Shown here: positions 13,212 through 28,731 of the stretch, piece after piece
Numbering within the stretch: the stretch's first letter is position 1
Layout of the letters: every line of letters starts with the position of its first letter
From: a virus
IMG/VR virus record: IMGVR_UViG_3300005827_000051
Location: 1 to 32,903 of that record
DNA: 32,903 nucleotides
Strand: one strand, 5' to 3'
The notes under the pieces: model-generated
Told to the model about the DNA's origin: nothing
What the model saw: only the letters and a program-made list of their open reading frames with translations
The model's database searches: none
Translations under genes and position numbers: made by a program

Positions 13212-14072
13212 ATGCCCAATACTTTCATTGACGGTCAAAAAGTAAAACGCTGGTGGGTAAATGGCCAAGAGGTAAAGAAAGCGTATATTGACGGTCAGCT
13301 GTGCTTTCAAAAAGAAGCCGTCGTATATGTTACCCAATCTGACTTGAATTACAACCCAAACACTCTTCAAGACGCTATGAGAGCAGCTAATGGTGGTGTG
13401 TTAAACAATGGCACATTTAGAATTGTCGTTAATCCAGGAGTCGTGATAGTAGGCCATAATTTTGCTGATGCGCCATTTATCTTTCACGGGATATTCAATT
13501 ATAAGGTAACGGTAGAGAACTATGGCACCGTTCTTGGAATGGGCGGCAATGGCGGATATGGTGGTGGTTACAATGCCGCTGGGATACAAGCGGGTTTTGC
13601 AGGTAAAAATGGCATTCTCGTAGCGGGCGCTGGCTCTGAAGTCATTATAGATAACCAAGGCGTTATCGGTGGAGGTGGCGGAGGTGGCGGAGGTTGTTAC
13701 GTTTGGTGGGAAGGAAACGGCTGCGATTCTGGCGCAAATTCTTGGGGTGGCGCTGGAGGTGCCCCGTTTGGCGTAGGAGCATGGGCGGCGTATCACTGTT
13801 CGCCGAAAAGCCCAGATGCGACTTACGACGTGTCAGGGATTGGCACTAAAATACCGAGTCCTTGGAGCCATACGCCTACTGGCGGAGGTGATGGTGGCCT
13901 GTGGGGACAAAGCGGGTTAGCGGGCAGCGGTTCTGCTGACCTCAGCTTTCAATTCCCACACGGGACGATTTCCACCACTAGCGGGGGGAACCCTGGTGCA
14001 GCGGTTCTTTTAACAGGGGGCGCATCCGTTAGCTTGATCAACCGAGGCACCTTGTATGGCGATGCACCTTAA
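13212..14072 (+). CDS. Glycine-rich tail-fibre-associated protein
   Basis: 286 aa. The N-terminus has a repeated DGQxVKK motif. The centre and C-terminus are Gly-rich (GGNGGYGGGYN..., a run of nine Gly, GGAGGAPFG, GGGDGGLWG). Locally GC-rich. Confidence 0.6.
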   Translation: MPNTFIDGQKVKRWWVNGQEVKKAYIDGQLCFQKEAVVYVTQSDLNYNPNTLQDAMRAANGGVLNNGTFRIVVNPGVVIVGHNFADAPFIFHGIFNYKVTVENYGTVLGMGGNGGYGGGYNAAGIQAGFAGKNGILVAGAGSEVIIDNQGVIGGGGGGGGGCYVWWEGNGCDSGANSWGGAGGAPFGVGAWAAYHCSPKSPDATYDVSGIGTKIPSPWSHTPTGGGDGGLWGQSGLAGSGSADLSFQFPHGTISTTSGGNPGAAVLLTGGASVSLINRGTLYGDAP

Positions 14073-18685: not shown

Positions 18686-19138
18686 CTGCAAAGCTATTGG
18701 CATTGCTACTATTAATAAAGACAGGATAGCTGTTGCGGCGTACATCCTATGAGATAATTTAAGAACGACATTTTCTAGCCTGTCGAACCTAACGTCTACC
18801 TTATCAAATCTATAGTCCATTTCTTGCTTAAGCGAATCGATTCGCTTATCTATAGAATCGACTCGCTTATCCAACGAATCAACTCGATGAGTAAGAACAT
18901 CTAATTTTTTGTCGATAGCACTAACCTTTTGGTCTAAACAGTCTATCTTTTCCTCGACCTTGGTTATCTTTTTGTCATGGCTGTCCTGCGTCGACAACAT
19001 TCTTCCTTGTGTTTCTCTTATCGTAATAAGCTGCTGCAGCAAGAAAACAGAAGGCTGCTCGCTATAGTCATTTCTGTGGCGCGAATGGCTACTCTTTGGG
19101 TTAGGTTTCGTGGTAGGTTCAGTCATGTTTTGTCCCAA
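18665..19138 (-). CDS. Tail-anchored coiled-coil protein with heptad tandem repeats (attP-adjacent cargo gene)
   Basis: 157 aa. Basic, disordered N-terminus. Repeats VDSLDKR/VDSIDKR/IDSLKQE/MDYRFDK/VDVRFDR. A single C-terminal TM (AATAILSLLIVAMPIALQLF). The architecture resembles XhlA-type or Bdr-type proteins, but this is an analogy only. It overlaps the i-spanin 3' end convergently by 21 nt. Confidence 0.7.
   Translation of the reverse strand: MGQNMTEPTTKPNPKSSHSRHRNDYSEQPSVFLLQQLITIRETQGRMLSTQDSHDKKITKVEEKIDCLDQKVSAIDKKLDVLTHRVDSLDKRVDSIDKRIDSLKQEMDYRFDKVDVRFDRLENVVLKLSHRMYAATAILSLLIVAMPIALQLFNFFK
18829..18848. repeat. 20-bp perfect palindrome taagcgaatcgattcgctta
   Basis: Verified base by base. 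It lies in the repeat-coding part of 18665..19138 (DKRIDSLK). Confidence 0.9.
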
Positions 19139-19394: not shown

Positions 19395-19470
19395 GGTTGA
19401 GAAACCCCATTGTGTTTTGTGTTAATATAGCGAGACTTTGCTCATCATCCCCCAAAAATCCCCCACAAAC

Positions 19471-20448
19471 ATGGCTTCATTTAAAAAATCAACTTCAGGA
19501 TGGCGTGCTCAGATTGAGCGGCTGGGCATCAGGAAATCAAAAACCTTTCCAACTAAGGCTGCTGCTCAAGCATGGGCCACTAAAGAAGAGGCGGCTATTC
19601 TTGCTGGAGCGCGAGGGGAAATCCCACATCACTCTCTACGCGAAGCACTGGATCGATACGCACGAGAAGTCTCTCCATCAAAACGCGGGGTAAGGTGGGA
19701 GATTATTAGGCTCGCTTCTTTTGCTAGAACGATGCCATTTGCCGACCAGTGGCTGCACCGAATAACGCCAAATGATATTGGACAATGGCGCGATTTAAGA
19801 CTCGTTGTCGTTAAGCGTTCCAGCGTTAGGCGTGATTTTAACCTGCTTAAAGCTGTTTTTAATCGGGCGATTAAAGAATGGCGTTGGCTAGAATCAAGTC
19901 CAATGAGAGATGTTGCCATGCCGGATGATGAAAAGCCAAGAACTCGTCGCATACACTGGCGAGAGGTATTGGCTATTTGCCGTGCTTTAGGCTACAAAGA
20001 TGGGGAGGTTGAGACGAAGTCTCAGGAAGTGGCTCTGGCTTTCCTGCTTTCCCTTAGAACCGCCATGAGGGCTGGCGAGATACTAAGCTTGTCTGACACT
20101 ACGGTTGACCTGGAAAGGCGCGTAGCTATGCTATGCGACACCAAGAATGGTGATGATCGCACCGTTCCGCTAACGAAGCGTGCAGCACGGCTACTGCGAT
20201 CGGTATCGGGAAGAGGCAAATTATTTTCAGTTAACAATGCCACTCGCGACGCTTTATTTCGCAGAGCTTGCCGAAAGGCAGGTGTGCTAGACCTGCACTT
20301 TCATGACGCAAGAGCTGAAGCATTAACCAGGCTTTCTCGTCGAGTTGATGTGATGACGTTAGCACGCATTAGTGGACATCGTGACTTGAAGATTTTGATG
20401 CAGACTTACTACCGCGAGACCGCGGAACAGATTGCCGCTCGCCTCTGA
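19471..20448 (+). CDS. int: Tyrosine integrase
   Basis: 325 aa from ATG 19471; the listed ORF starts 33 nt earlier at a non-ATG codon. Catalytic-domain motifs are LRTAMRAGEIL (Arg), HFHDARAEALTRL (H-x-x-R) and GHRDLKILMQTYY (His...Tyr). Confidence 0.9.
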   Translation: MASFKKSTSGWRAQIERLGIRKSKTFPTKAAAQAWATKEEAAILAGARGEIPHHSLREALDRYAREVSPSKRGVRWEIIRLASFARTMPFADQWLHRITPNDIGQWRDLRLVVVKRSSVRRDFNLLKAVFNRAIKEWRWLESSPMRDVAMPDDEKPRTRRIHWREVLAICRALGYKDGEVETKSQEVALAFLLSLRTAMRAGEILSLSDTTVDLERRVAMLCDTKNGDDRTVPLTKRAARLLRSVSGRGKLFSVNNATRDALFRRACRKAGVLDLHFHDARAEALTRLSRRVDVMTLARISGHRDLKILMQTYYRETAEQIAARL

Positions 20449-25135: not shown

Positions 25136-25456
25136 TAAAAAATTTATTTATTTTTATATTTTTAGCTGTTTTATAGTTATATTATTGATTATATTGCCTT
25201 ATTACCCTGTCTCAAAAACGCACTCCCGCCACATCGTCTGCCATGTGGCAAAACCGCGAATACTTAAGAAAAAATGATTGAGAGAGCGAAGAACATTATT
25301 TGTTTAGAGGAATATAGCTATGGCAAATGTCGCAAACTGGCGGCACGCTGAAATTTTCGGTGAATGCGGATTGATAGGTGCGGGCTATTTACTGGCATGT
25401 ATGAAAGAGTTATGATGATATGCGCTATCTTTCATAATTAGAAAACTTTGCTATAT

Positions 25457-26638
25457 ATGGACCCTAGAACAAACCCTTATGCGCCAGGAGCGGGATCTAT
25501 CCCCCCAGAATTGGCTGGGAGAGAAGAGATTATTGAGAAAGCGGCGATTGCGCTTGATCGATTTAGAAGCGGTTTATCTGCGCGAAGCTTGCTATTAATA
25601 GGCCTTCGCGGCGTAGGTAAGACCGTGCTTCTTACGCGCATATCTCAAGAAACAGAAGCGAGAGGGTTCATTACTGTTTCTATTGAGGCACCTGAAAAAC
25701 GCTCGTTGCCGGCTCTGCTAATACCGTCCTTACGCACCTCATTATTTAAGTTAGATGCAATATCAGCCACGGGAAACTTGGCAAAAAAAGCCATGCAAGT
25801 TCTCGGGGGATTTGTCCAAGCGATGAAAGTAAAGTATGGGGACATCGAGTTTAGTGTCGATCTTGGTAGTGAGCCTGGTGTGGCTGATTCTGGTGACTTA
25901 GAGCATGATTTAATTAACTTATTTTTGGAAGTCGGGAAAGCGGCAAAAGAGAAGAATACGGCAGTGGTTTTTTTTATTGATGAGCTACAGTACGTAGCAG
26001 AAGAGCAATTTGCTTCTCTTATTACAGCGTTACATAGCTGCGCACAGCAGCAGCTTCCTGTTGCGCTTGTTGGGGCTGGTTTGCCTCAATTGGCCGGGAA
26101 AGCGGGCAATGCTAAATCCTATGCCGAGCGTTTGTTCGAATACCCAGAAATTGGTCCATTAACCAAAGAGGCGGCAAGAGGGGCTATTGTTGTTCCAGTA
26201 AGTAAATTAGGGGTGAATTATGAAGATGACGCGATTGAAGAAATTATTCGCAGAACGCATGCGTACCCTTATTTTTTGCAAGAATGGGGGAAGCATAGCT
26301 GGGACCATGCTCGCTATTCGATTATCACTAAAAGCGACGTAGAGATGGCTAGTGAAATAGCTATACATAGCTTAGATGCTAGTTTTTTCCGCGTAAGGTT
26401 TGATCGGCTAACGCCAGGAGAAAAAAAATACTTGCACGCAATGGCAAAGTTGGGACCTGGGCCACATCGTTCTGGAGATATATCCTCATTATTAAAAAAA
26501 GAAGTTCAGAGTGTTGCTCCGACTAGATCATCCTTAATAAAAAAGGGGATGATTTATAGTCCAGCTCACGGAGATAATAGCTTTACCGTTCCTTTGTTTG
26601 ACGAGTATATGAGAAGAGCGATACCAGACGAAAAATAA
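25457..26638 (+). CDS. P-loop NTPase (ORC/Cdc6-like or STAND-type 'archaeal ATPase' fold) with a C-terminal winged-helix-like domain
   Basis: Walker A GLRGVGKT (25601-25624). Walker B-like VVFFIDELQY. N-terminal lead-in NPYAPGAGSIPPELAGREE. C-terminal LTPGEKKYLHAMAKLG..SGDISSLL..SVAPTRSSLIKKGMIYSP..G..FTVPLF. Start is ATG 25457, or TTG 25448 as listed. Confidence 0.8.
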   Translation: MDPRTNPYAPGAGSIPPELAGREEIIEKAAIALDRFRSGLSARSLLLIGLRGVGKTVLLTRISQETEARGFITVSIEAPEKRSLPALLIPSLRTSLFKLDAISATGNLAKKAMQVLGGFVQAMKVKYGDIEFSVDLGSEPGVADSGDLEHDLINLFLEVGKAAKEKNTAVVFFIDELQYVAEEQFASLITALHSCAQQQLPVALVGAGLPQLAGKAGNAKSYAERLFEYPEIGPLTKEAARGAIVVPVSKLGVNYEDDAIEEIIRRTHAYPYFLQEWGKHSWDHARYSIITKSDVEMASEIAIHSLDASFFRVRFDRLTPGEKKYLHAMAKLGPGPHRSGDISSLLKKEVQSVAPTRSSLIKKGMIYSPAHGDNSFTVPLFDEYMRRAIPDEK

Positions 26639-26837: not shown

Positions 26838-27140
26838 TTATTTGCACTTGATATATATCTCTCCTTGTATAAGATTTGGATGTCCGGCAATGGGGGTCAC
26901 TGTTTTATCAGGGGGGCTAGCGCCACCCCCAAGAAATTCATAGCCTTTTGTCCCGCAAATTTCGCCAGCCTTTGCATAACAATCTGCGAACGTTAGTAGC
27001 CGCCCTTTGGGGCTGTATCCTGTACATCCAATGTGATAGCCAACAGAGCCGTCTGGCAAATTAATGGGGCGAAGGAAGACTCCACATCCGGCTAAGATGA
27101 TTGGGATTGATGCTATTGCTATTAATTTAACGCGCTTCAC
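26838..27140 (-). CDS. Small Cys-rich lipoprotein downstream of the repressor gene
   Basis: GTG start. The signal peptide MKRVKLIAIASIPIILAG|C has a lipobox. The mature ~82 aa contain 5 Cys. It lies 28 nt downstream of the repressor stop on the same strand. Confidence 0.6.
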   Translation of the reverse strand: MKRVKLIAIASIPIILAGCGVFLRPINLPDGSVGYHIGCTGYSPKGRLLTFADCYAKAGEICGTKGYEFLGGGASPPDKTVTPIAGHPNLIQGEIYIKCK

Positions 27141-27168: not shown

Positions 27169-27657
27169 CTAAGCAGATCTAGCGCGACCAGAGGGACCAG
27201 AGGGACCAGAGGGACCAGAGGGACCAGAGGGACCAGAGGGACCAGAGGGACCAGAGGGACCAGAGGGACCAGATTGGTTGGCAAGCATTTGCTCCAGTAG
27301 ATGTTTGTTCTCAAGTTGTTTTTTTCTAACATAAGAAAAAATTTCTTTTGCTTGATATTCTGGTAATCCTCTGATAATGGAATAAATTTCATATAATTTA
27401 TCTGTCATGCTCAGACCTTCGTCTTTTGGATCAGCGCCAAATTTATCCTCATCTATCCCCCAGTGTTCCATATTTACCACATCAGAAAAGTATCTAAAAA
27501 CATCAAACAGGTGTTTCTTGCTTATTTTCCCGTATTTCACCCAGCCGTAAACAGACTGAGGGGCGATATTAAAATGCCTAGCCAAATCAACCTGGCCAAT
27601 CCCCTTCATGGTCATGGCTTCTCTAAGGGCCATCCCAAGCTCACCTCCAGATTTCAT
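27169..27657 (-). CDS. CI-like HTH (XRE-family) repressor with a C-terminal (Gly-Pro-Ser)n tail
   Basis: AGGAG lies 7 nt upstream of ATG 27657. HTH is MKGIGQVDLARHFNIAPQSVYGWVKYG. It is divergent from a Cro-like gene. It has no S24 peptidase-like C-terminal domain and ends ...NQSGPSGPS(GPS)nGRARSA. Confidence 0.8.
   Translation of the reverse strand: MKSGGELGMALREAMTMKGIGQVDLARHFNIAPQSVYGWVKYGKISKKHLFDVFRYFSDVVNMEHWGIDEDKFGADPKDEGLSMTDKLYEIYSIIRGLPEYQAKEIFSYVRKKQLENKHLLEQMLANQSGPSGPSGPSGPSGPSGPSGPSGPSGPSGRARSA
27185..27274. repeat. Perfect 9-bp tandem repeat (ggaccagag x8, plus one 1-mismatch unit at each end)
   Basis: Counted directly: cgaccagag (27185-27193), eight exact ggaccagag units (27194-27265), ggaccagat (27266-27274). 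It encodes Ser-Gly-Pro repeats on the minus strand. Confidence 0.97.
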
Positions 27658-27718
27658 GGCCAGCTCCTTTCTTAATGTTACTATTTTTCCTGATTACATG
27701 TTTAAAATTGATGCACAC

Positions 27719-27747
27719 ATAATAACAATAATATGAATATCAGTCAA
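27719..27747 (-). promoter_or_regulatory. Near-consensus sigma70 promoter for the repressor operon
   Basis: The minus strand reads TTGACT - 17 nt - TATTAT (-35 at 27747..27742, -10 at 27724..27719), about 60 nt upstream of ATG 27657. Confidence 0.55.
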
Positions 27748-27819
27748 TGGCTGACATATCTATATAGGCTTAGTACGGAACAAACTAATATTATAAAATA
27801 TAAGCCATCGCCTGTTTTA

Positions 27820-27828
27820 TGGTATAGT
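27820..27828 (+). promoter_or_regulatory. Possible extended -10 (TGgTATAGT) of a PR-like promoter
   Basis: TG at 27820-27821 and TATAGT at 27823-27828, about 37 nt upstream of the Cro-like ATG. There is no good -35. Confidence 0.3.
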
Positions 27829-27864
27829 TTTGATTGTGAGTTTACATGCGGCTGAGGTTTTTCG

Positions 27865-28161
27865 ATGAGAGATCGTGCAATGCTTCTTATCTCAATATTT
27901 GGCAACCAAAGAAGATTGGCCATTGCTTTGGGCGTGAGTTCTCAGACTGTAAATGATTGGGTTTTAGGAAAGCGGAGAGTGCCCCCATCGAAAGCCGTTG
28001 CAATCGAACGTCTCACCAACGGCCTGGTTGTCCGAGAAGAGTTAGTCAGTAACTGGGAAGACTTTTGGCCTGAGCTGGTTGCACTCAACCGTCTAGCTCA
28101 GAAAGAACGTGAGCCTACCCATCATGTTCCACCGATCGACACATTGCCATCACGTGTCTAA
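27865..28161 (+). CDS. Cro / YdaS-like HTH regulator
   Basis: GAGG lies 7 nt upstream. IFGNQRRLAIALGVSSQTVNDWVLGKRRVPPSKAVAIERLTNGLVVREEL matches the YdaS/Cro-type pattern. It is divergent from the repressor. Confidence 0.75.
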   Translation: MRDRAMLLISIFGNQRRLAIALGVSSQTVNDWVLGKRRVPPSKAVAIERLTNGLVVREELVSNWEDFWPELVALNRLAQKEREPTHHVPPIDTLPSRV

Positions 28162-28190
28162 GAAGTGCTGGTTTAGCGACATGAGTGGTT

Positions 28191-28219
28191 TCTAGCCGCA
28201 GATTGCGGCTGCGGCTAGA
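28191..28219. terminator. GC-rich 11-bp hairpin between convergent genes (terminator-like, no U-tract)
   Basis: tctagccgcag (28191-28201) pairs with ctgcggctaga (28209-28219) around a 7-nt loop. Confidence 0.4.
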
Positions 28220-28274
28220 GATGTTTAACTACAGGAATAATTGAATAATTATCGAGTTTCTAGGGAAGATATTT

Positions 28275-28532
28275 TTATTTTTGCGGATAGTGTTTGTTTA
28301 GCAGGTCTGCTAGTGATTGGAGATTAATGGCAGTTTTTTTTGCTTCATCTGTATCTCTTATATTAAATATTTTTTCTTGAATTGCTCTGTCTGCCGAGTT
28401 GTCAGCAAGTATTTGAGCATTCAATATGCCTTCACGATGAAGGGTGAATATTAAGTCAAATATTAAGTCAAATAAGATTCTTAAAGTTGAGTCATAAGAG
28501 GATGATTTTTTCTTAAAGATATTAAAGTTCAT
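28275..28532 (-). CDS. Hypothetical protein (85 aa) on the opposite strand within the rightward early region
   Basis: AT-rich. It contains a 12-bp tandem duplication encoding FDLIFDLIF. No family recognised. Confidence 0.5.
   Translation of the reverse strand: MNFNIFKKKSSSYDSTLRILFDLIFDLIFTLHREGILNAQILADNSADRAIQEKIFNIRDTDEAKKTAINLQSLADLLNKHYPQK
28447..28474. repeat. 12-bp tandem duplication aatattaagtca x2.3
   Basis: Units at 28447-28458 and 28459-28470 are identical, and 28471-28474 begins a third. Confidence 0.9.
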
Positions 28533-28731
28533 GAGCGCACCTTTTTTGGTGTTGTTCGTTGAGGGACTAACAATTTCTCAGGAATGTGTGCGCTCGTCAA
28601 ATTTTTTGTGTTAAGTAGGAATATTATAATGAGCAATACTGGACACAAGATGAATCGCAAACAGGCTAAAGAATTATTTAAATCTGGCCGAATATCGACA
28701 TTAATGTTGCTCTGCTCTTGCGGTTTAAGCG

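What the first reader, a model, noticed from the sequence alone, without database searches (positions are those of the whole stretch)
27169..27657. CI-like repressor ends in a collagen-like (Gly-Pro-Ser)9-10 tract encoded by a perfect, in-frame 9-bp tandem repeat and lacks an S24 domain
Seen in sequence:
- Eight exact copies of ggaccagag, plus two 1-mismatch flanking units (27185-27274), encode ...SGPSGPSGPS... at the extreme C-terminus of the 162-aa HTH repressor.
- Because the unit is 9 bp, replication slippage changes the tract length without breaking the frame, making it a built-in length-variable module.
- The perfection of the repeat suggests recent or ongoing expansion and contraction.

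Established knowledge:
- Gly-X-Y triplets are the collagen motif. In phages they are normally found in fibres, not in regulators.
- Classical CI repressors carry a LexA/S24-like autocleavage and dimerisation domain, for which I see no motif here.

Inference:
- The tract may act as an oligomerisation or spacer element, as a degradation or induction tag, or as a hypervariable contingency locus that tunes immunity.
Basis: partly seen in the sequence, partly recalled or inferred. Interest (0 to 1): 0.66.

Follow-up and report, generated by a model that had tools for sequence, protein, structure and literature searches.

The report
Phage repressor with repeat-made Gly-Pro-Ser tail
A prophage repressor of the RacR type ends in a floppy Gly-Pro-Ser tail made by ten copies of a 9-base repeat; no relative has such a tail, but it is most likely a recent DNA-slippage product acting as a spacer, not a collagen helix.

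Summary
Positions 27186-27273 hold a perfect 9-bp array of 9.8 copies. It lies in frame at the 3' end of a 162-aa gene (27169-27657, minus strand) and encodes S(GPS)9-GRARSA.

The gene is the repressor of a lambdoid-style immunity region in a novel temperate phage. It has a strong Shine-Dalgarno site and is transcribed divergently from a YdaS/P22-Cro-like gene. It is not a truncated lambda CI. It belongs to the RacR-like class: a five-helix HTH domain, a roughly 19-aa linker and a short helical C-module, with no S24 domain. Most relatives also lack S24, so that part of the finding is ordinary.

The Gly-Pro-Ser tail is unusual. None of 239 relatives examined carries a Gly-X-Y run or a comparable tandem peptide repeat. 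The two relatives that align over nearly the full length end about where the array begins.

The array looks young and slippage-made:
- all units are identical;
- it uses the phage's rarest proline codon nine times;
- its GC is 66% against 39% for the rest of the gene.

It sits between the helical module and a terminal basic-Ala motif (GRARSA) that recurs in the family. AlphaFold2 gives it no secondary structure. At 30 residues without hydroxyproline it is too short for a stable triple helix.

No close relative was found, so copy-number variation could not be tested. Function is unproven.

The parts
27169..27657 (-). Repressor gene, 162 aa plus TAG stop. It is a RacR-like, non-S24 prophage repressor.
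   Evidence: ORF. NCBIfam RacR model NF049929 E=1.5e-18 over aa 1-95. tblastn hits to 'Rac prophage repressor' and 'CI repressor' genes of phages. 604 relatives in the exhaustive search.
27460..27657 (-). N-terminal five-helix HTH DNA-binding domain (aa 1-66).
   Evidence: AF2 helices 4-18, 22-29, 33-42, 47-56 and 63-66 with pLDDT about 97. This is the conserved core of the family. Foldseek matches XRE-type HTH proteins with target-normalised TM 0.6-0.7.
27403..27459 (-). Inter-domain linker (aa 67-85).
   Evidence: pLDDT 60-70 and no secondary structure. It matches the 18-aa linker described for RacR (PMC9638921).
27274..27402 (-). C-terminal two-helix module (aa 86-128), presumed oligomerisation domain.
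   Evidence: AF2 helices 86-96 and 100-128 with pLDDT about 95. It aligns with the C-terminal part of P0023, which ends 6 residues later, and P0021. P0021's C-part hits the DicA C-terminus.
27186..27273 (-). Perfect 9-bp minisatellite. Units are GGACCAGAG on + and TCTGGTCCC in the mRNA. It encodes (Ser-Gly-Pro)9.
   Evidence: TRF 9.8 copies at 100%. Exact-unit count. CCC is the rarest Pro codon, and array GC is 66% against 39% for the rest of the gene. No secondary structure and pLDDT 55-60 in AF2.
27172..27189 (-). Terminal hexapeptide GRARSA, a basic-Ala C-terminal motif shared with part of the family.
   Evidence: The strict motif is at the terminus in 21/196 short relatives, against 0.4% of internal 6-mers. 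It occurs in 13/142 tail clusters. Mean net charge of the last 10 aa is +1.85 against -0.22.
27658..27864 (.). Divergent regulatory region between the repressor and cro-like genes. It holds a promoter-like site for the repressor (TTGACT-17-TATTAT, 27747..27719, minus strand) and two imperfect inverted repeats.
   Evidence: Operators were not defined.
27865..28161 (+). Cro/YdaS-like lytic regulator, transcribed divergently.
   Evidence: Pfam YdaS_toxin 9.6e-17 and P22_Cro 1.6e-12. PHROG transcriptional repressor.
26838..27140 (-). Lipoprotein gene 28 nt downstream of the repressor on the same strand, probably co-transcribed in the lysogen.
   Evidence: ORF with an LAGC lipobox. PHROG 5685, 9.4e-10. 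No terminator-like site between the two genes.

Best explanation
**What it is.** The gene encodes the lysogeny repressor of a novel temperate phage. It is of the RacR-like, non-S24 class. The protein has an N-terminal HTH domain (aa 1-66), a flexible linker (67-85), a two-helix C-module (86-128) and an intrinsically disordered tail.

**How the tail arose.** The tail was lengthened recently by replication slippage of a 9-bp unit. This produced (Gly-Pro-Ser)9, inserted between the helical module and the ancestral terminus ...SGRARSA. Because the unit is a multiple of three, gains and losses of units keep the frame, so the array is tolerated.

**What the tail does (inferred).** The tract is a flexible, proline-rich spacer and not a collagen triple helix. 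Its main effect is to move the family-typical basic-Ala C-terminus further from the folded core. That terminus resembles ClpX C-terminal degrons, so tract length could modestly change repressor turnover. It may equally be near-neutral.

**Shown here:** the anatomy, the family assignment, the uniqueness of the tail among relatives, and the signs that the array is young.

**Inferred, not shown:** slippage as the origin, disorder of the tail, and any role in protein turnover.
For: Array and ORF:
- The array and the open reading frame are confirmed.

Family and context:
- RacR model E=1.5e-18 over aa 1-95.
- 32% identity over 137 aa to a phage 'Rac prophage repressor' that is also divergent from cro- and cII-like genes.
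- The neighbouring gene is YdaS/Cro-like and divergent.
- The window carries integrase, Erf, a RecE-like exonuclease, replication genes and a portal, so it is a temperate phage.

Architecture:
- The AF2 model matches the published RacR layout of alpha1-5, an 18-aa linker and a C-domain (PMC9638921).

The tail is an add-on:
- The relatives that align over nearly the full length, P0023 (128 aa) and P0021 (137 aa), end within 4-6 residues of where the array starts.
- 0 of 239 relatives has 4 or more Gly-X-Y triplets or a tandem peptide repeat of three or more exact units beyond four trivial dipeptide triplets such as AIAIAI.
- Only the query hits Pfam Collagen among 150 family members.
- A profile built to reward 'N-domain plus GPS tail' found nothing above 100 bits in 5.8 billion clusters.

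The array is young:
- All interior units are identical.
- CCC makes up 9% of Pro codons in 16 large ORFs, yet is used 9 times in the array.
- Array GC is 66% against 39% for the rest of the gene.

The tail is disordered:
- AF2 gives no secondary structure and pLDDT 55-60.

Conserved terminus:
- GRARSA fits a motif enriched about 27-fold at family C-termini.
- It resembles ClpX C-motif-2 tags such as RAKKVA and HARKVA (PMC9775585).
Against: - No close relative was found, so neither slippage-driven variation nor the ancestral repeat-free state was observed directly.
- The basic-Ala motif is present in only 11% (strict) to 27% (loose) of short relatives, and its function is untested in any of them.
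- A monomer AF2 model cannot exclude an inter-chain triple helix.
- Ten uninterrupted Gly-X-Y triplets with Pro at every X directly follow a long helix. That layout is also how nucleated collagen domains are arranged.
- An assembly error in copy number cannot be excluded without reads.
Confidence: 0.6

Rival explanations
1. Selected contingency locus. The array is a slippage-tunable spacer that sets the distance between the folded repressor and a C-terminal protease tag (GRARSA). Copy-number changes would then heritably alter repressor half-life, and with it spontaneous induction and immunity strength.
For: - The in-frame perfect array is suited to length change.
- It lies exactly between the helical module and a terminus that fits a family-recurrent basic-Ala motif.
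- That motif resembles ClpX C-motif-1 and C-motif-2 tags.
- Non-S24 repressors need some route of inactivation other than RecA-stimulated self-cleavage (established knowledge).
- A variable repeat inside a putative phage repressor gene has a precedent: the Liberibacter locus CLIBASIA_01645, with 0-21 copies of a 7-bp unit (PMC6901247).
Against: - No population or relative data exist.
- The degron assignment rests on resemblance only.
- Relatives manage with non-repetitive tails.
- The rare codon and foreign GC content fit an accident as well as they fit selection.
Confidence: 0.17
2. True collagen-like triple helix. The helix 100-128 nucleates trimerisation, and the (GPS)9-GRA tract zips into a short triple helix. 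This would bundle repressor units into higher oligomers for cooperative operator binding or DNA looping.
For: - Ten uninterrupted Gly-X-Y triplets with Pro at every X.
- A sub-threshold Pfam Collagen hit and PHROG tail-fibre hits over aa 102-159.
- The tract abuts a confidently predicted long helix.
Against: - The tract is only 30 residues and has no hydroxyproline.
- Hyp-free bacterial collagen fragments of 75-237 residues melt at 23.5-35.6 C, and stability falls with shorter length (PMC7824840).
- From memory of the Brodsky host-guest scale, Ser at the Y position is among the less favourable residues.
- The Pfam score is below the gathering cutoff.
- HTH repressors act as dimers or as multiples of dimers.
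- No relative has such a tract.
- The heptad pattern of helix 100-128 is weak (own reading of the sequence).
Confidence: 0.07
3. The repeat acts at the nucleic-acid level, as a cis element or RNA structure affecting the downstream lipoprotein gene. Alternatively, it is an assembly artefact of copy number.
For: - The array lies in the 3' end of the repressor cistron, about 45 nt upstream of the lipoprotein start codon.
- Short-read assemblers can mis-size arrays (general knowledge).
Against: - ssDNA and RNA folds are no better than shuffles (z = +1.08 and -0.01).
- There is no Rfam match.
- A 9-bp spacing is out of helical phase for a protein-binding array.
- The array is exactly in frame, and a family-typical terminus is preserved after it. 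That argues for a real coding sequence.
Confidence: 0.05

Closest known systems
RacR, repressor of the E. coli Rac prophage (NCBIfam NF049929), and RacR-like 'CI repressors' of Pseudomonas, Klebsiella and Escherichia phages
   Same: - Homologous N-terminal alpha1-5 HTH domain (E=1.5e-18).
- Linker plus short helical C-part.
- No S24 domain.
- Divergent from a YdaS/Cro-like gene.
- Similar length, about 130-180 aa.
   Different: - Scores 67.5 bits against the 200-bit equivalog cutoff.
- The C-terminal module is not the enterobacterial alpha6-8 domain.
- There is no YdaT/CII-like gene after cro.
- It carries the (GPS)9 tail, which no RacR-like protein examined has.
Lambda CI / LexA-type repressors (HTH plus Peptidase_S24)
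   Same: - Same position and presumed role in the immunity region.
- 23 of 150 proteins sharing this N-domain do carry an S24 domain.
   Different: There is no S24 domain, no room for one, and no self-cleavage module. Inactivation must go through another route, such as an antirepressor or proteolysis (inference).
Variable-number repeat in a putative phage repressor gene: 'Ca. Liberibacter asiaticus' CLIBASIA_01645
   Same: A short tandem repeat lies inside a gene annotated as a phage repressor. Copy number there varies from 0 to 21 between strains and is attributed to strand slippage (PMC6901247).
   Different: That unit is 7 bp, so changes shift the frame and truncate the protein. Here the unit is 9 bp, so the frame is kept and only tail length would change. 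Variation is documented there and is untested here.
Prokaryotic and phage collagen-like proteins (Scl1/2, Lcl, prophage tail fibres)
   Same: - Gly-X-Y periodicity encoded by tandem DNA repeats.
- The same 9-mer array occurs in collagen-like fibre ORFs of viral contigs.
   Different: - Those proteins are secreted or virion-borne.
- They have tracts of tens to hundreds of triplets with a trimerisation domain.
- This tract has 10 triplets at the end of a cytoplasmic DNA-binding protein.
C-terminal ClpX degrons: C-motif-1 (xAA) and C-motif-2 (for example YbaQ RAKKVA, PaaA HARKVA)
   Same: The terminal GRARSA, and family ends such as KKRRAA and RKQRAA, have basic residues followed by small residues and Ala at the free C-terminus.
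   Different: This is resemblance only. No degradation data exist for any member of this family.

Membership tests
RacR (NCBIfam NF049929 equivalog) | Whole-protein score above the curated cutoff of 200 bits | tested here: not met
   67.5 bits, covering aa 1-95 and model positions 1-103 of 150. A bona fide phage RacR scores 242 bits in the same call.
RacR-like repressors (broad family sharing the N-domain) | Homologous alpha1-5 HTH N-terminal domain | tested here: met
   E=1.5e-18 to the RacR model. 604 relatives found by exhaustive phmmer. The consensus ...YFSDVVGPEHWG is shared. AF2 shows five helices at pLDDT about 97.
RacR-like repressors (broad family sharing the N-domain) | Divergent pairing with a YdaS/Cro-like gene in a prophage immunity region | tested here: met
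   27865-28161 (+) hits YdaS_toxin at 9.6e-17 and P22_Cro at 1.6e-12. Phage context.
RacR-like repressors (broad family sharing the N-domain) | YdaT/CII-like gene downstream of the cro-like gene | tested here: not met
   The largest + strand ORF between 28162 and 28731 is 51 aa, so none approaches the 140-aa cII-like gene of the Rac-type phage. The next large + strand gene is the DUF1376 replication gene.
Lambda CI / LexA-type repressors | C-terminal Peptidase_S24 self-cleavage domain | tested here: not met
   No PF00717 hit at E<=0.1. 23 of 150 relatives do have the domain, so the test can detect it.
Collagen-like proteins (Pfam PF01391) | Uninterrupted Gly-X-Y repeats | tested here: met
   10 triplets, (GPS)9 plus GRA.
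Collagen-like proteins (Pfam PF01391) | Score above the Pfam gathering threshold | tested here: not met
   20.3 bits against 27.2.
Collagen-like proteins (Pfam PF01391) | Tract long enough, or stabilised enough, to form a triple helix, with a trimerisation module | not testable with these tools
   The tract is only 30 residues and Hyp-free. Literature values for Hyp-free tracts of 75 or more residues are 23.5-35.6 C. Only a monomer AF2 model was possible.
Coding variable-number repeat / contingency locus | Near-perfect tandem array of many units inside a gene, with unit length a multiple of 3 | tested here: met
   9.8 copies at 100% identity, 9-bp unit, in frame.
Coding variable-number repeat / contingency locus | Copy number differs between relatives or within a population | not testable with these tools
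   No close relative was found in phage records, E. coli genomes, GTDB genomes, IMG/VR, JGI metagenomes or the protein collections.
ClpX C-terminal degron | C-terminal xAA, or a basic cluster followed by a small residue and Ala | tested here: inconclusive
   GRARSA fits a motif enriched at family termini and resembles listed C-motif-2 tags. There is no functional test.

The most novel reading that the evidence does not exclude
The 9-bp array is a selected 'length dial' in a phage lysis-lysogeny switch. Slippage would change the spacer between the folded RacR-like repressor and its C-terminal basic-Ala protease tag. Repressor half-life, and hence spontaneous induction rate or immunity, would then vary heritably within a lysogen population. 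This would be a contingency locus acting through protein turnover instead of on/off frameshifting.
Probability: 0.12. Interest if true: 0.7.

Novelty: new variant of a known kind. Interest (0 to 1): 0.36.

Why it matters
If the tract is only a tolerated slippage product, the finding is a curiosity. It shows that the disordered C-terminal tail of RacR-type repressors can absorb a 27-residue insertion.

It would matter more if tract length changes repressor stability. That would be a simple, mutable mechanism for tuning prophage induction. It would also point to proteolysis through a conserved basic-Ala C-terminus as the still unknown inactivation route for the large RacR-like class of repressors that lack S24. 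That terminal motif, seen across the family, is the most testable lead from this work.

Tried and rejected
Searches for close relatives, to compare copy number. All were empty:
- megablast against phage records and E. coli genomes;
- word-indexed protein search with aa 1-128;
- back-translated scans of GTDB genomes, IMG/VR and JGI metagenomes;
- exact-protein look-ups for the repressor and the cro-like protein;
- scans with the cro-like protein and the lipoprotein.

Other leads that went nowhere:
- The two IMG/VR loci L001 and L002 were spurious. L001 was read and is a primase-like ORF sharing only KKQLENKH; L002 gave an identical match but could not be opened.
- The same DNA array in viral contigs lies in collagen-like fibre ORFs or in unrelated ORFs, never in a regulator.
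- A full-length protein search returned only six collagen-like secreted or fibre proteins.
- No collagen-like fibre gene in this window could have donated the repeat.
- Hairpin or RNA-structure roles were rejected. There is no Rfam family and no tRNA.
- Structure searches gave only weak generic XRE-HTH, SinR, DicA and CI matches. There is no solved homologue by sequence.
- Operators in the intergenic region were not resolved. Only two imperfect inverted repeats were found.
- A multimer prediction of the tail was not possible with the tools.

Full report
**1. The observation**

Tandem Repeats Finder reports a period-9 array at 27186-27273 with 9.8 copies and 100% matches, score 176. Every other array in the 32.9-kb window has at most 3.4 copies.

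There are eight exact GGACCAGAG units at 27194-27265. They are flanked by two units with one mismatch each, at 27185-27193 and 27266-27274. The window has 13 matches with at most one mismatch, against 3.5 expected, and none of 100 shuffles reached 13.

The minus-strand ORF 27169..27657 is 162 aa and reads ...EQMLANQ-S-(GPS)9-GRARSA-stop. That makes ten uninterrupted Gly-X-Y triplets. It is the only such run in a long open frame of the window apart from a Gly-rich virion protein. AAGGAG lies 6 nt upstream of the ATG (read). The N-terminus, MKSGGELGMAL, matches the family consensus MLTGxELGxAL from residue 1. The gene call is therefore sound.

**2. The genomic setting**

The window is a temperate phage or prophage. 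It carries:
- a portal gene (256-2247), a scaffold gene and virion protein genes;
- a tyrosine integrase (19438-20448);
- a leftward early operon with Erf and a RecE-like exonuclease;
- rightward replication genes, DUF1376 and a P-like helicase loader.

The repressor gene is transcribed divergently from a 98-aa gene at 27865-28161. That gene hits YdaS_toxin at 9.6e-17 and P22_Cro at 1.6e-12. This is the classical immunity-region layout.

The phage itself is novel. No DNA match was found in 50,697 phage records or in E. coli genomes. The portal protein is at most about 41% identical to any phage record.

**3. The protein family**

The best annotated relatives are a 'Rac prophage repressor' of Escherichia phage vB_EcoS-683R6 and 'CI repressor' genes of Pseudomonas phages. 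The Escherichia protein is 158 aa and 32% identical over 137 aa. It is also divergent from cro- and cII-like genes.

NCBIfam's RacR model matches aa 1-95 at E=1.5e-18. The score is 67.5 bits against a cutoff of 200, so this is a homologue of the RacR N-domain and not a RacR equivalog.

An exhaustive phmmer search of 1.84 billion representative proteins gave 604 relatives at E<=0.001. None exceeded 56% identity, and most aligned only over aa 1-75.

Among the 150 best relatives, 23 carry Peptidase_S24 and the rest are short proteins without it. Lacking S24 is therefore the majority state of this family and not an anomaly.

The AlphaFold2 model has mean pLDDT 84.5 and shows:
- five helices at aa 4-66, pLDDT about 97;
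- a linker at 67-85, pLDDT 60-70;
- two helices at 86-96 and 100-128, pLDDT about 95;
- a tail at 129-162 with no secondary structure, pLDDT 55-60.

This is the architecture published for RacR: alpha1-5, an 18-aa unstructured linker and a lineage-specific helical C-domain (PMC9638921). Jobling's reading of RacR/YdaS/YdaT as CI/Cro/CII analogues fits the position of the gene here (PMC5917428). Structure searches gave only weak, generic matches to XRE-HTH, SinR, DicA and CI-like proteins.

**4. The tail is a lineage-specific add-on**

The relatives that align over nearly the full length are P0023 (128 aa, 38% identity over aa 1-122) and P0021 (137 aa). Both terminate 4-6 residues after the position where the array starts.

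None of the 150 best exhaustive hits has four or more Gly-X-Y triplets, and their only tandem peptide repeats are four trivial dipeptide triplets such as AIAIAI.

I then built a profile that rewards 'family N-domain plus (GPS)9' and searched 5.8 billion protein clusters.
- The best score was 100 bits, which is the N-domain alone.
- None of the 120 listed proteins carries Pfam Collagen.
- None of the 89 new sequences has four or more Gly-X-Y triplets or a tandem peptide repeat.

The full-length protein as query returned only six collagen-like secreted or fibre proteins and no HTH protein. The same DNA array, as three or more units, occurs in five IMG/VR contigs. There it sits in collagen-like fibre ORFs or in unrelated ORFs, never in a regulator. 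Within the reach of these searches, the tail is unique.

**5. Signs of a recent, DNA-level origin**

- All interior units are identical, including third codon positions.
- The proline codon used nine times, CCC, is the rarest in this phage: 24 of 269 Pro codons (9%) in 16 large ORFs. It is absent from the rest of the repressor gene.
- The array is 66% GC against 39% for the rest of the gene.

This pattern is what amplification of one unit by slipped-strand mispairing would produce. It is not what codon-by-codon selection would produce (inference from established knowledge of repeat dynamics). The array has no unusual single-strand DNA or RNA structure (z = +1.08 and -0.01). There is no Rfam match.

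**6. What lies after the array**

The six residues after the repeat, GRARSA, are not arbitrary. I examined 196 short family members of 110-200 aa.
- The last ten residues have mean net charge +1.85, and 60% are at or above +2. Other windows downstream of the HTH domain average -0.22, with 13% at or above +2.
- The last residue is Ala in 54 proteins. The last dipeptide is AA in 26 and SA in 10.
- A strict motif requires at least two K/R/H at positions -6 to -3, A/S/V at -2 and A at -1. It occurs at 21 of 196 termini, against 0.4% of internal hexamers. It is spread over 13 of 142 clusters of otherwise dissimilar tails. GRARSA satisfies it.
- Typical ends are ...KKRRAA, ...RKQRAA, ...KAKSAA and ...RRARKSA.

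The array therefore sits between the helical module and a retained, family-typical terminus. These ends resemble ClpX C-terminal recognition signals. C-motif-1 includes LAA, NAA, PAA and EAA. C-motif-2 includes RRKKAI, RAKKVA of the HTH protein YbaQ, and HARKVA (PMC9775585 Table 2; PMC12723719). This is resemblance only, and nothing has been tested.

**7. Is it a collagen helix?**

Probably not.
- The Pfam Collagen score is below threshold.
- The tract is 30 residues and bacteria do not make hydroxyproline.
- Hyp-free bacterial collagen fragments of 75-237 residues melt at only 23.5-35.6 C, and stability decreases with decreasing length (PMC7824840).
- From memory, Ser at the Y position is an unfavourable guest residue in the Brodsky host-guest scale.
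- The protein is a cytoplasmic DNA-binding protein whose relatives function without such a tract.

A monomer model cannot formally exclude an inter-chain helix, so this reading is kept as a rival at low probability.

**8. Most likely mechanism**

Shown:
- This is a RacR-like, non-S24 repressor.
- Its tail contains a unique, perfect, in-frame minisatellite.
- The minisatellite lies between the helical C-module and a conserved-type terminus.

Inferred:
- The array arose recently by slippage.
- It is a flexible Pro-rich spacer, up to about 9 nm if fully extended.
- It is tolerated because this family's tail is disordered and variable in length anyway.
- Any effect is quantitative. It could change how the basic-Ala terminus is presented, for example to a protease or to DNA.

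Whether copy number actually varies could not be tested, because no close relative was found in any collection. A documented precedent for a slippage-variable repeat inside a putative phage repressor gene is the 7-bp repeat of Liberibacter CLIBASIA_01645, with 0-21 copies. That repeat shifts the frame, whereas this one cannot (PMC6901247).

**9. Verdict**

The 'no S24' element is ordinary for this family. The 'collagen' label applies to the sequence pattern only. The repeat-made tail is real and apparently unique, but it has no demonstrated function and no comparative data.

I file it as a new variant of a known kind, a RacR-like repressor carrying a coding minisatellite, with moderate-to-low interest. 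The family-wide basic-Ala terminus is the lead most worth following.

Noticed in passing
Family of RacR-like repressors (proteins P0001-P0245); query residues 157-162 = window 27172-27189 (-): Short members of this repressor family often end in a basic cluster followed by Ala or Ser-Ala, for example KKRRAA, RKQRAA and RRARKSA. The motif is about 27-fold enriched at the terminus relative to internal positions, and it occurs across unrelated tail sequences. It resembles ClpX C-terminal degrons, which suggests an untested proteolytic route for inactivating these non-S24 repressors.
   Followed up: partly
window 25448-26638 (+): A 396-aa AAA_16 / STAND-like ATPase lies between the leftward early operon and the immunity region, on the opposite strand. 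Pfam AAA_16 scores 2.7e-16 and there is a weak PADLOC hit to mad8 at 1.5e-07. It may be a prophage-borne defence or moron gene.
   Followed up: partly
window 26838-27140 (-): A 100-aa lipoprotein gene with an LAGC lipobox starts 28 nt after the repressor stop codon on the same strand. No terminator-like site lies between them. It is probably expressed with the repressor in lysogens, as a possible superinfection-exclusion or conversion function. It matches PHROG 5685, of unknown function.
   Followed up: partly
window 28162-28731: There is no CII/YdaT-like gene between the cro-like gene and the replication gene. The largest ORF there is an 85-aa minus-strand ORF at 28275-28532.
   Followed up: no
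window 13212-14072 (+), especially 13659-13694: A glycine-rich 286-aa protein in the virion module contains a run of nine consecutive Gly residues within GVIGGGGGGGGG, encoded partly by a GGAGGTGGC repeat. The local GC of 0.505 is above the window's typical 0.33-0.47.
   Followed up: no
window 18833-18886: A 21-bp tandem repeat (CGAATCGACTCGCTTATCCAA, 2.6 copies) lies about 550 bp upstream of the integrase gene. It could hold integrase arm-type binding sites in attP.
   Followed up: no
L005 1076-1192 (IMGVR_UViG_3300032325_000788, 123-kb contig): An unrelated ORF on a large viral contig ends in a (PSG)13-type tract encoded by the same 9-mer family. This shows that the repeat arises independently in non-collagen proteins.
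   Followed up: no
whole window: The phage is only distantly related to anything in the phage record collection. Portal identity is at most about 41%, with the best matches in freshwater Caudoviricetes, Pelagibacter phage HTVC106P and Vibrio podophages. No host could be assigned, and no tRNA gene is present.
   Followed up: partly
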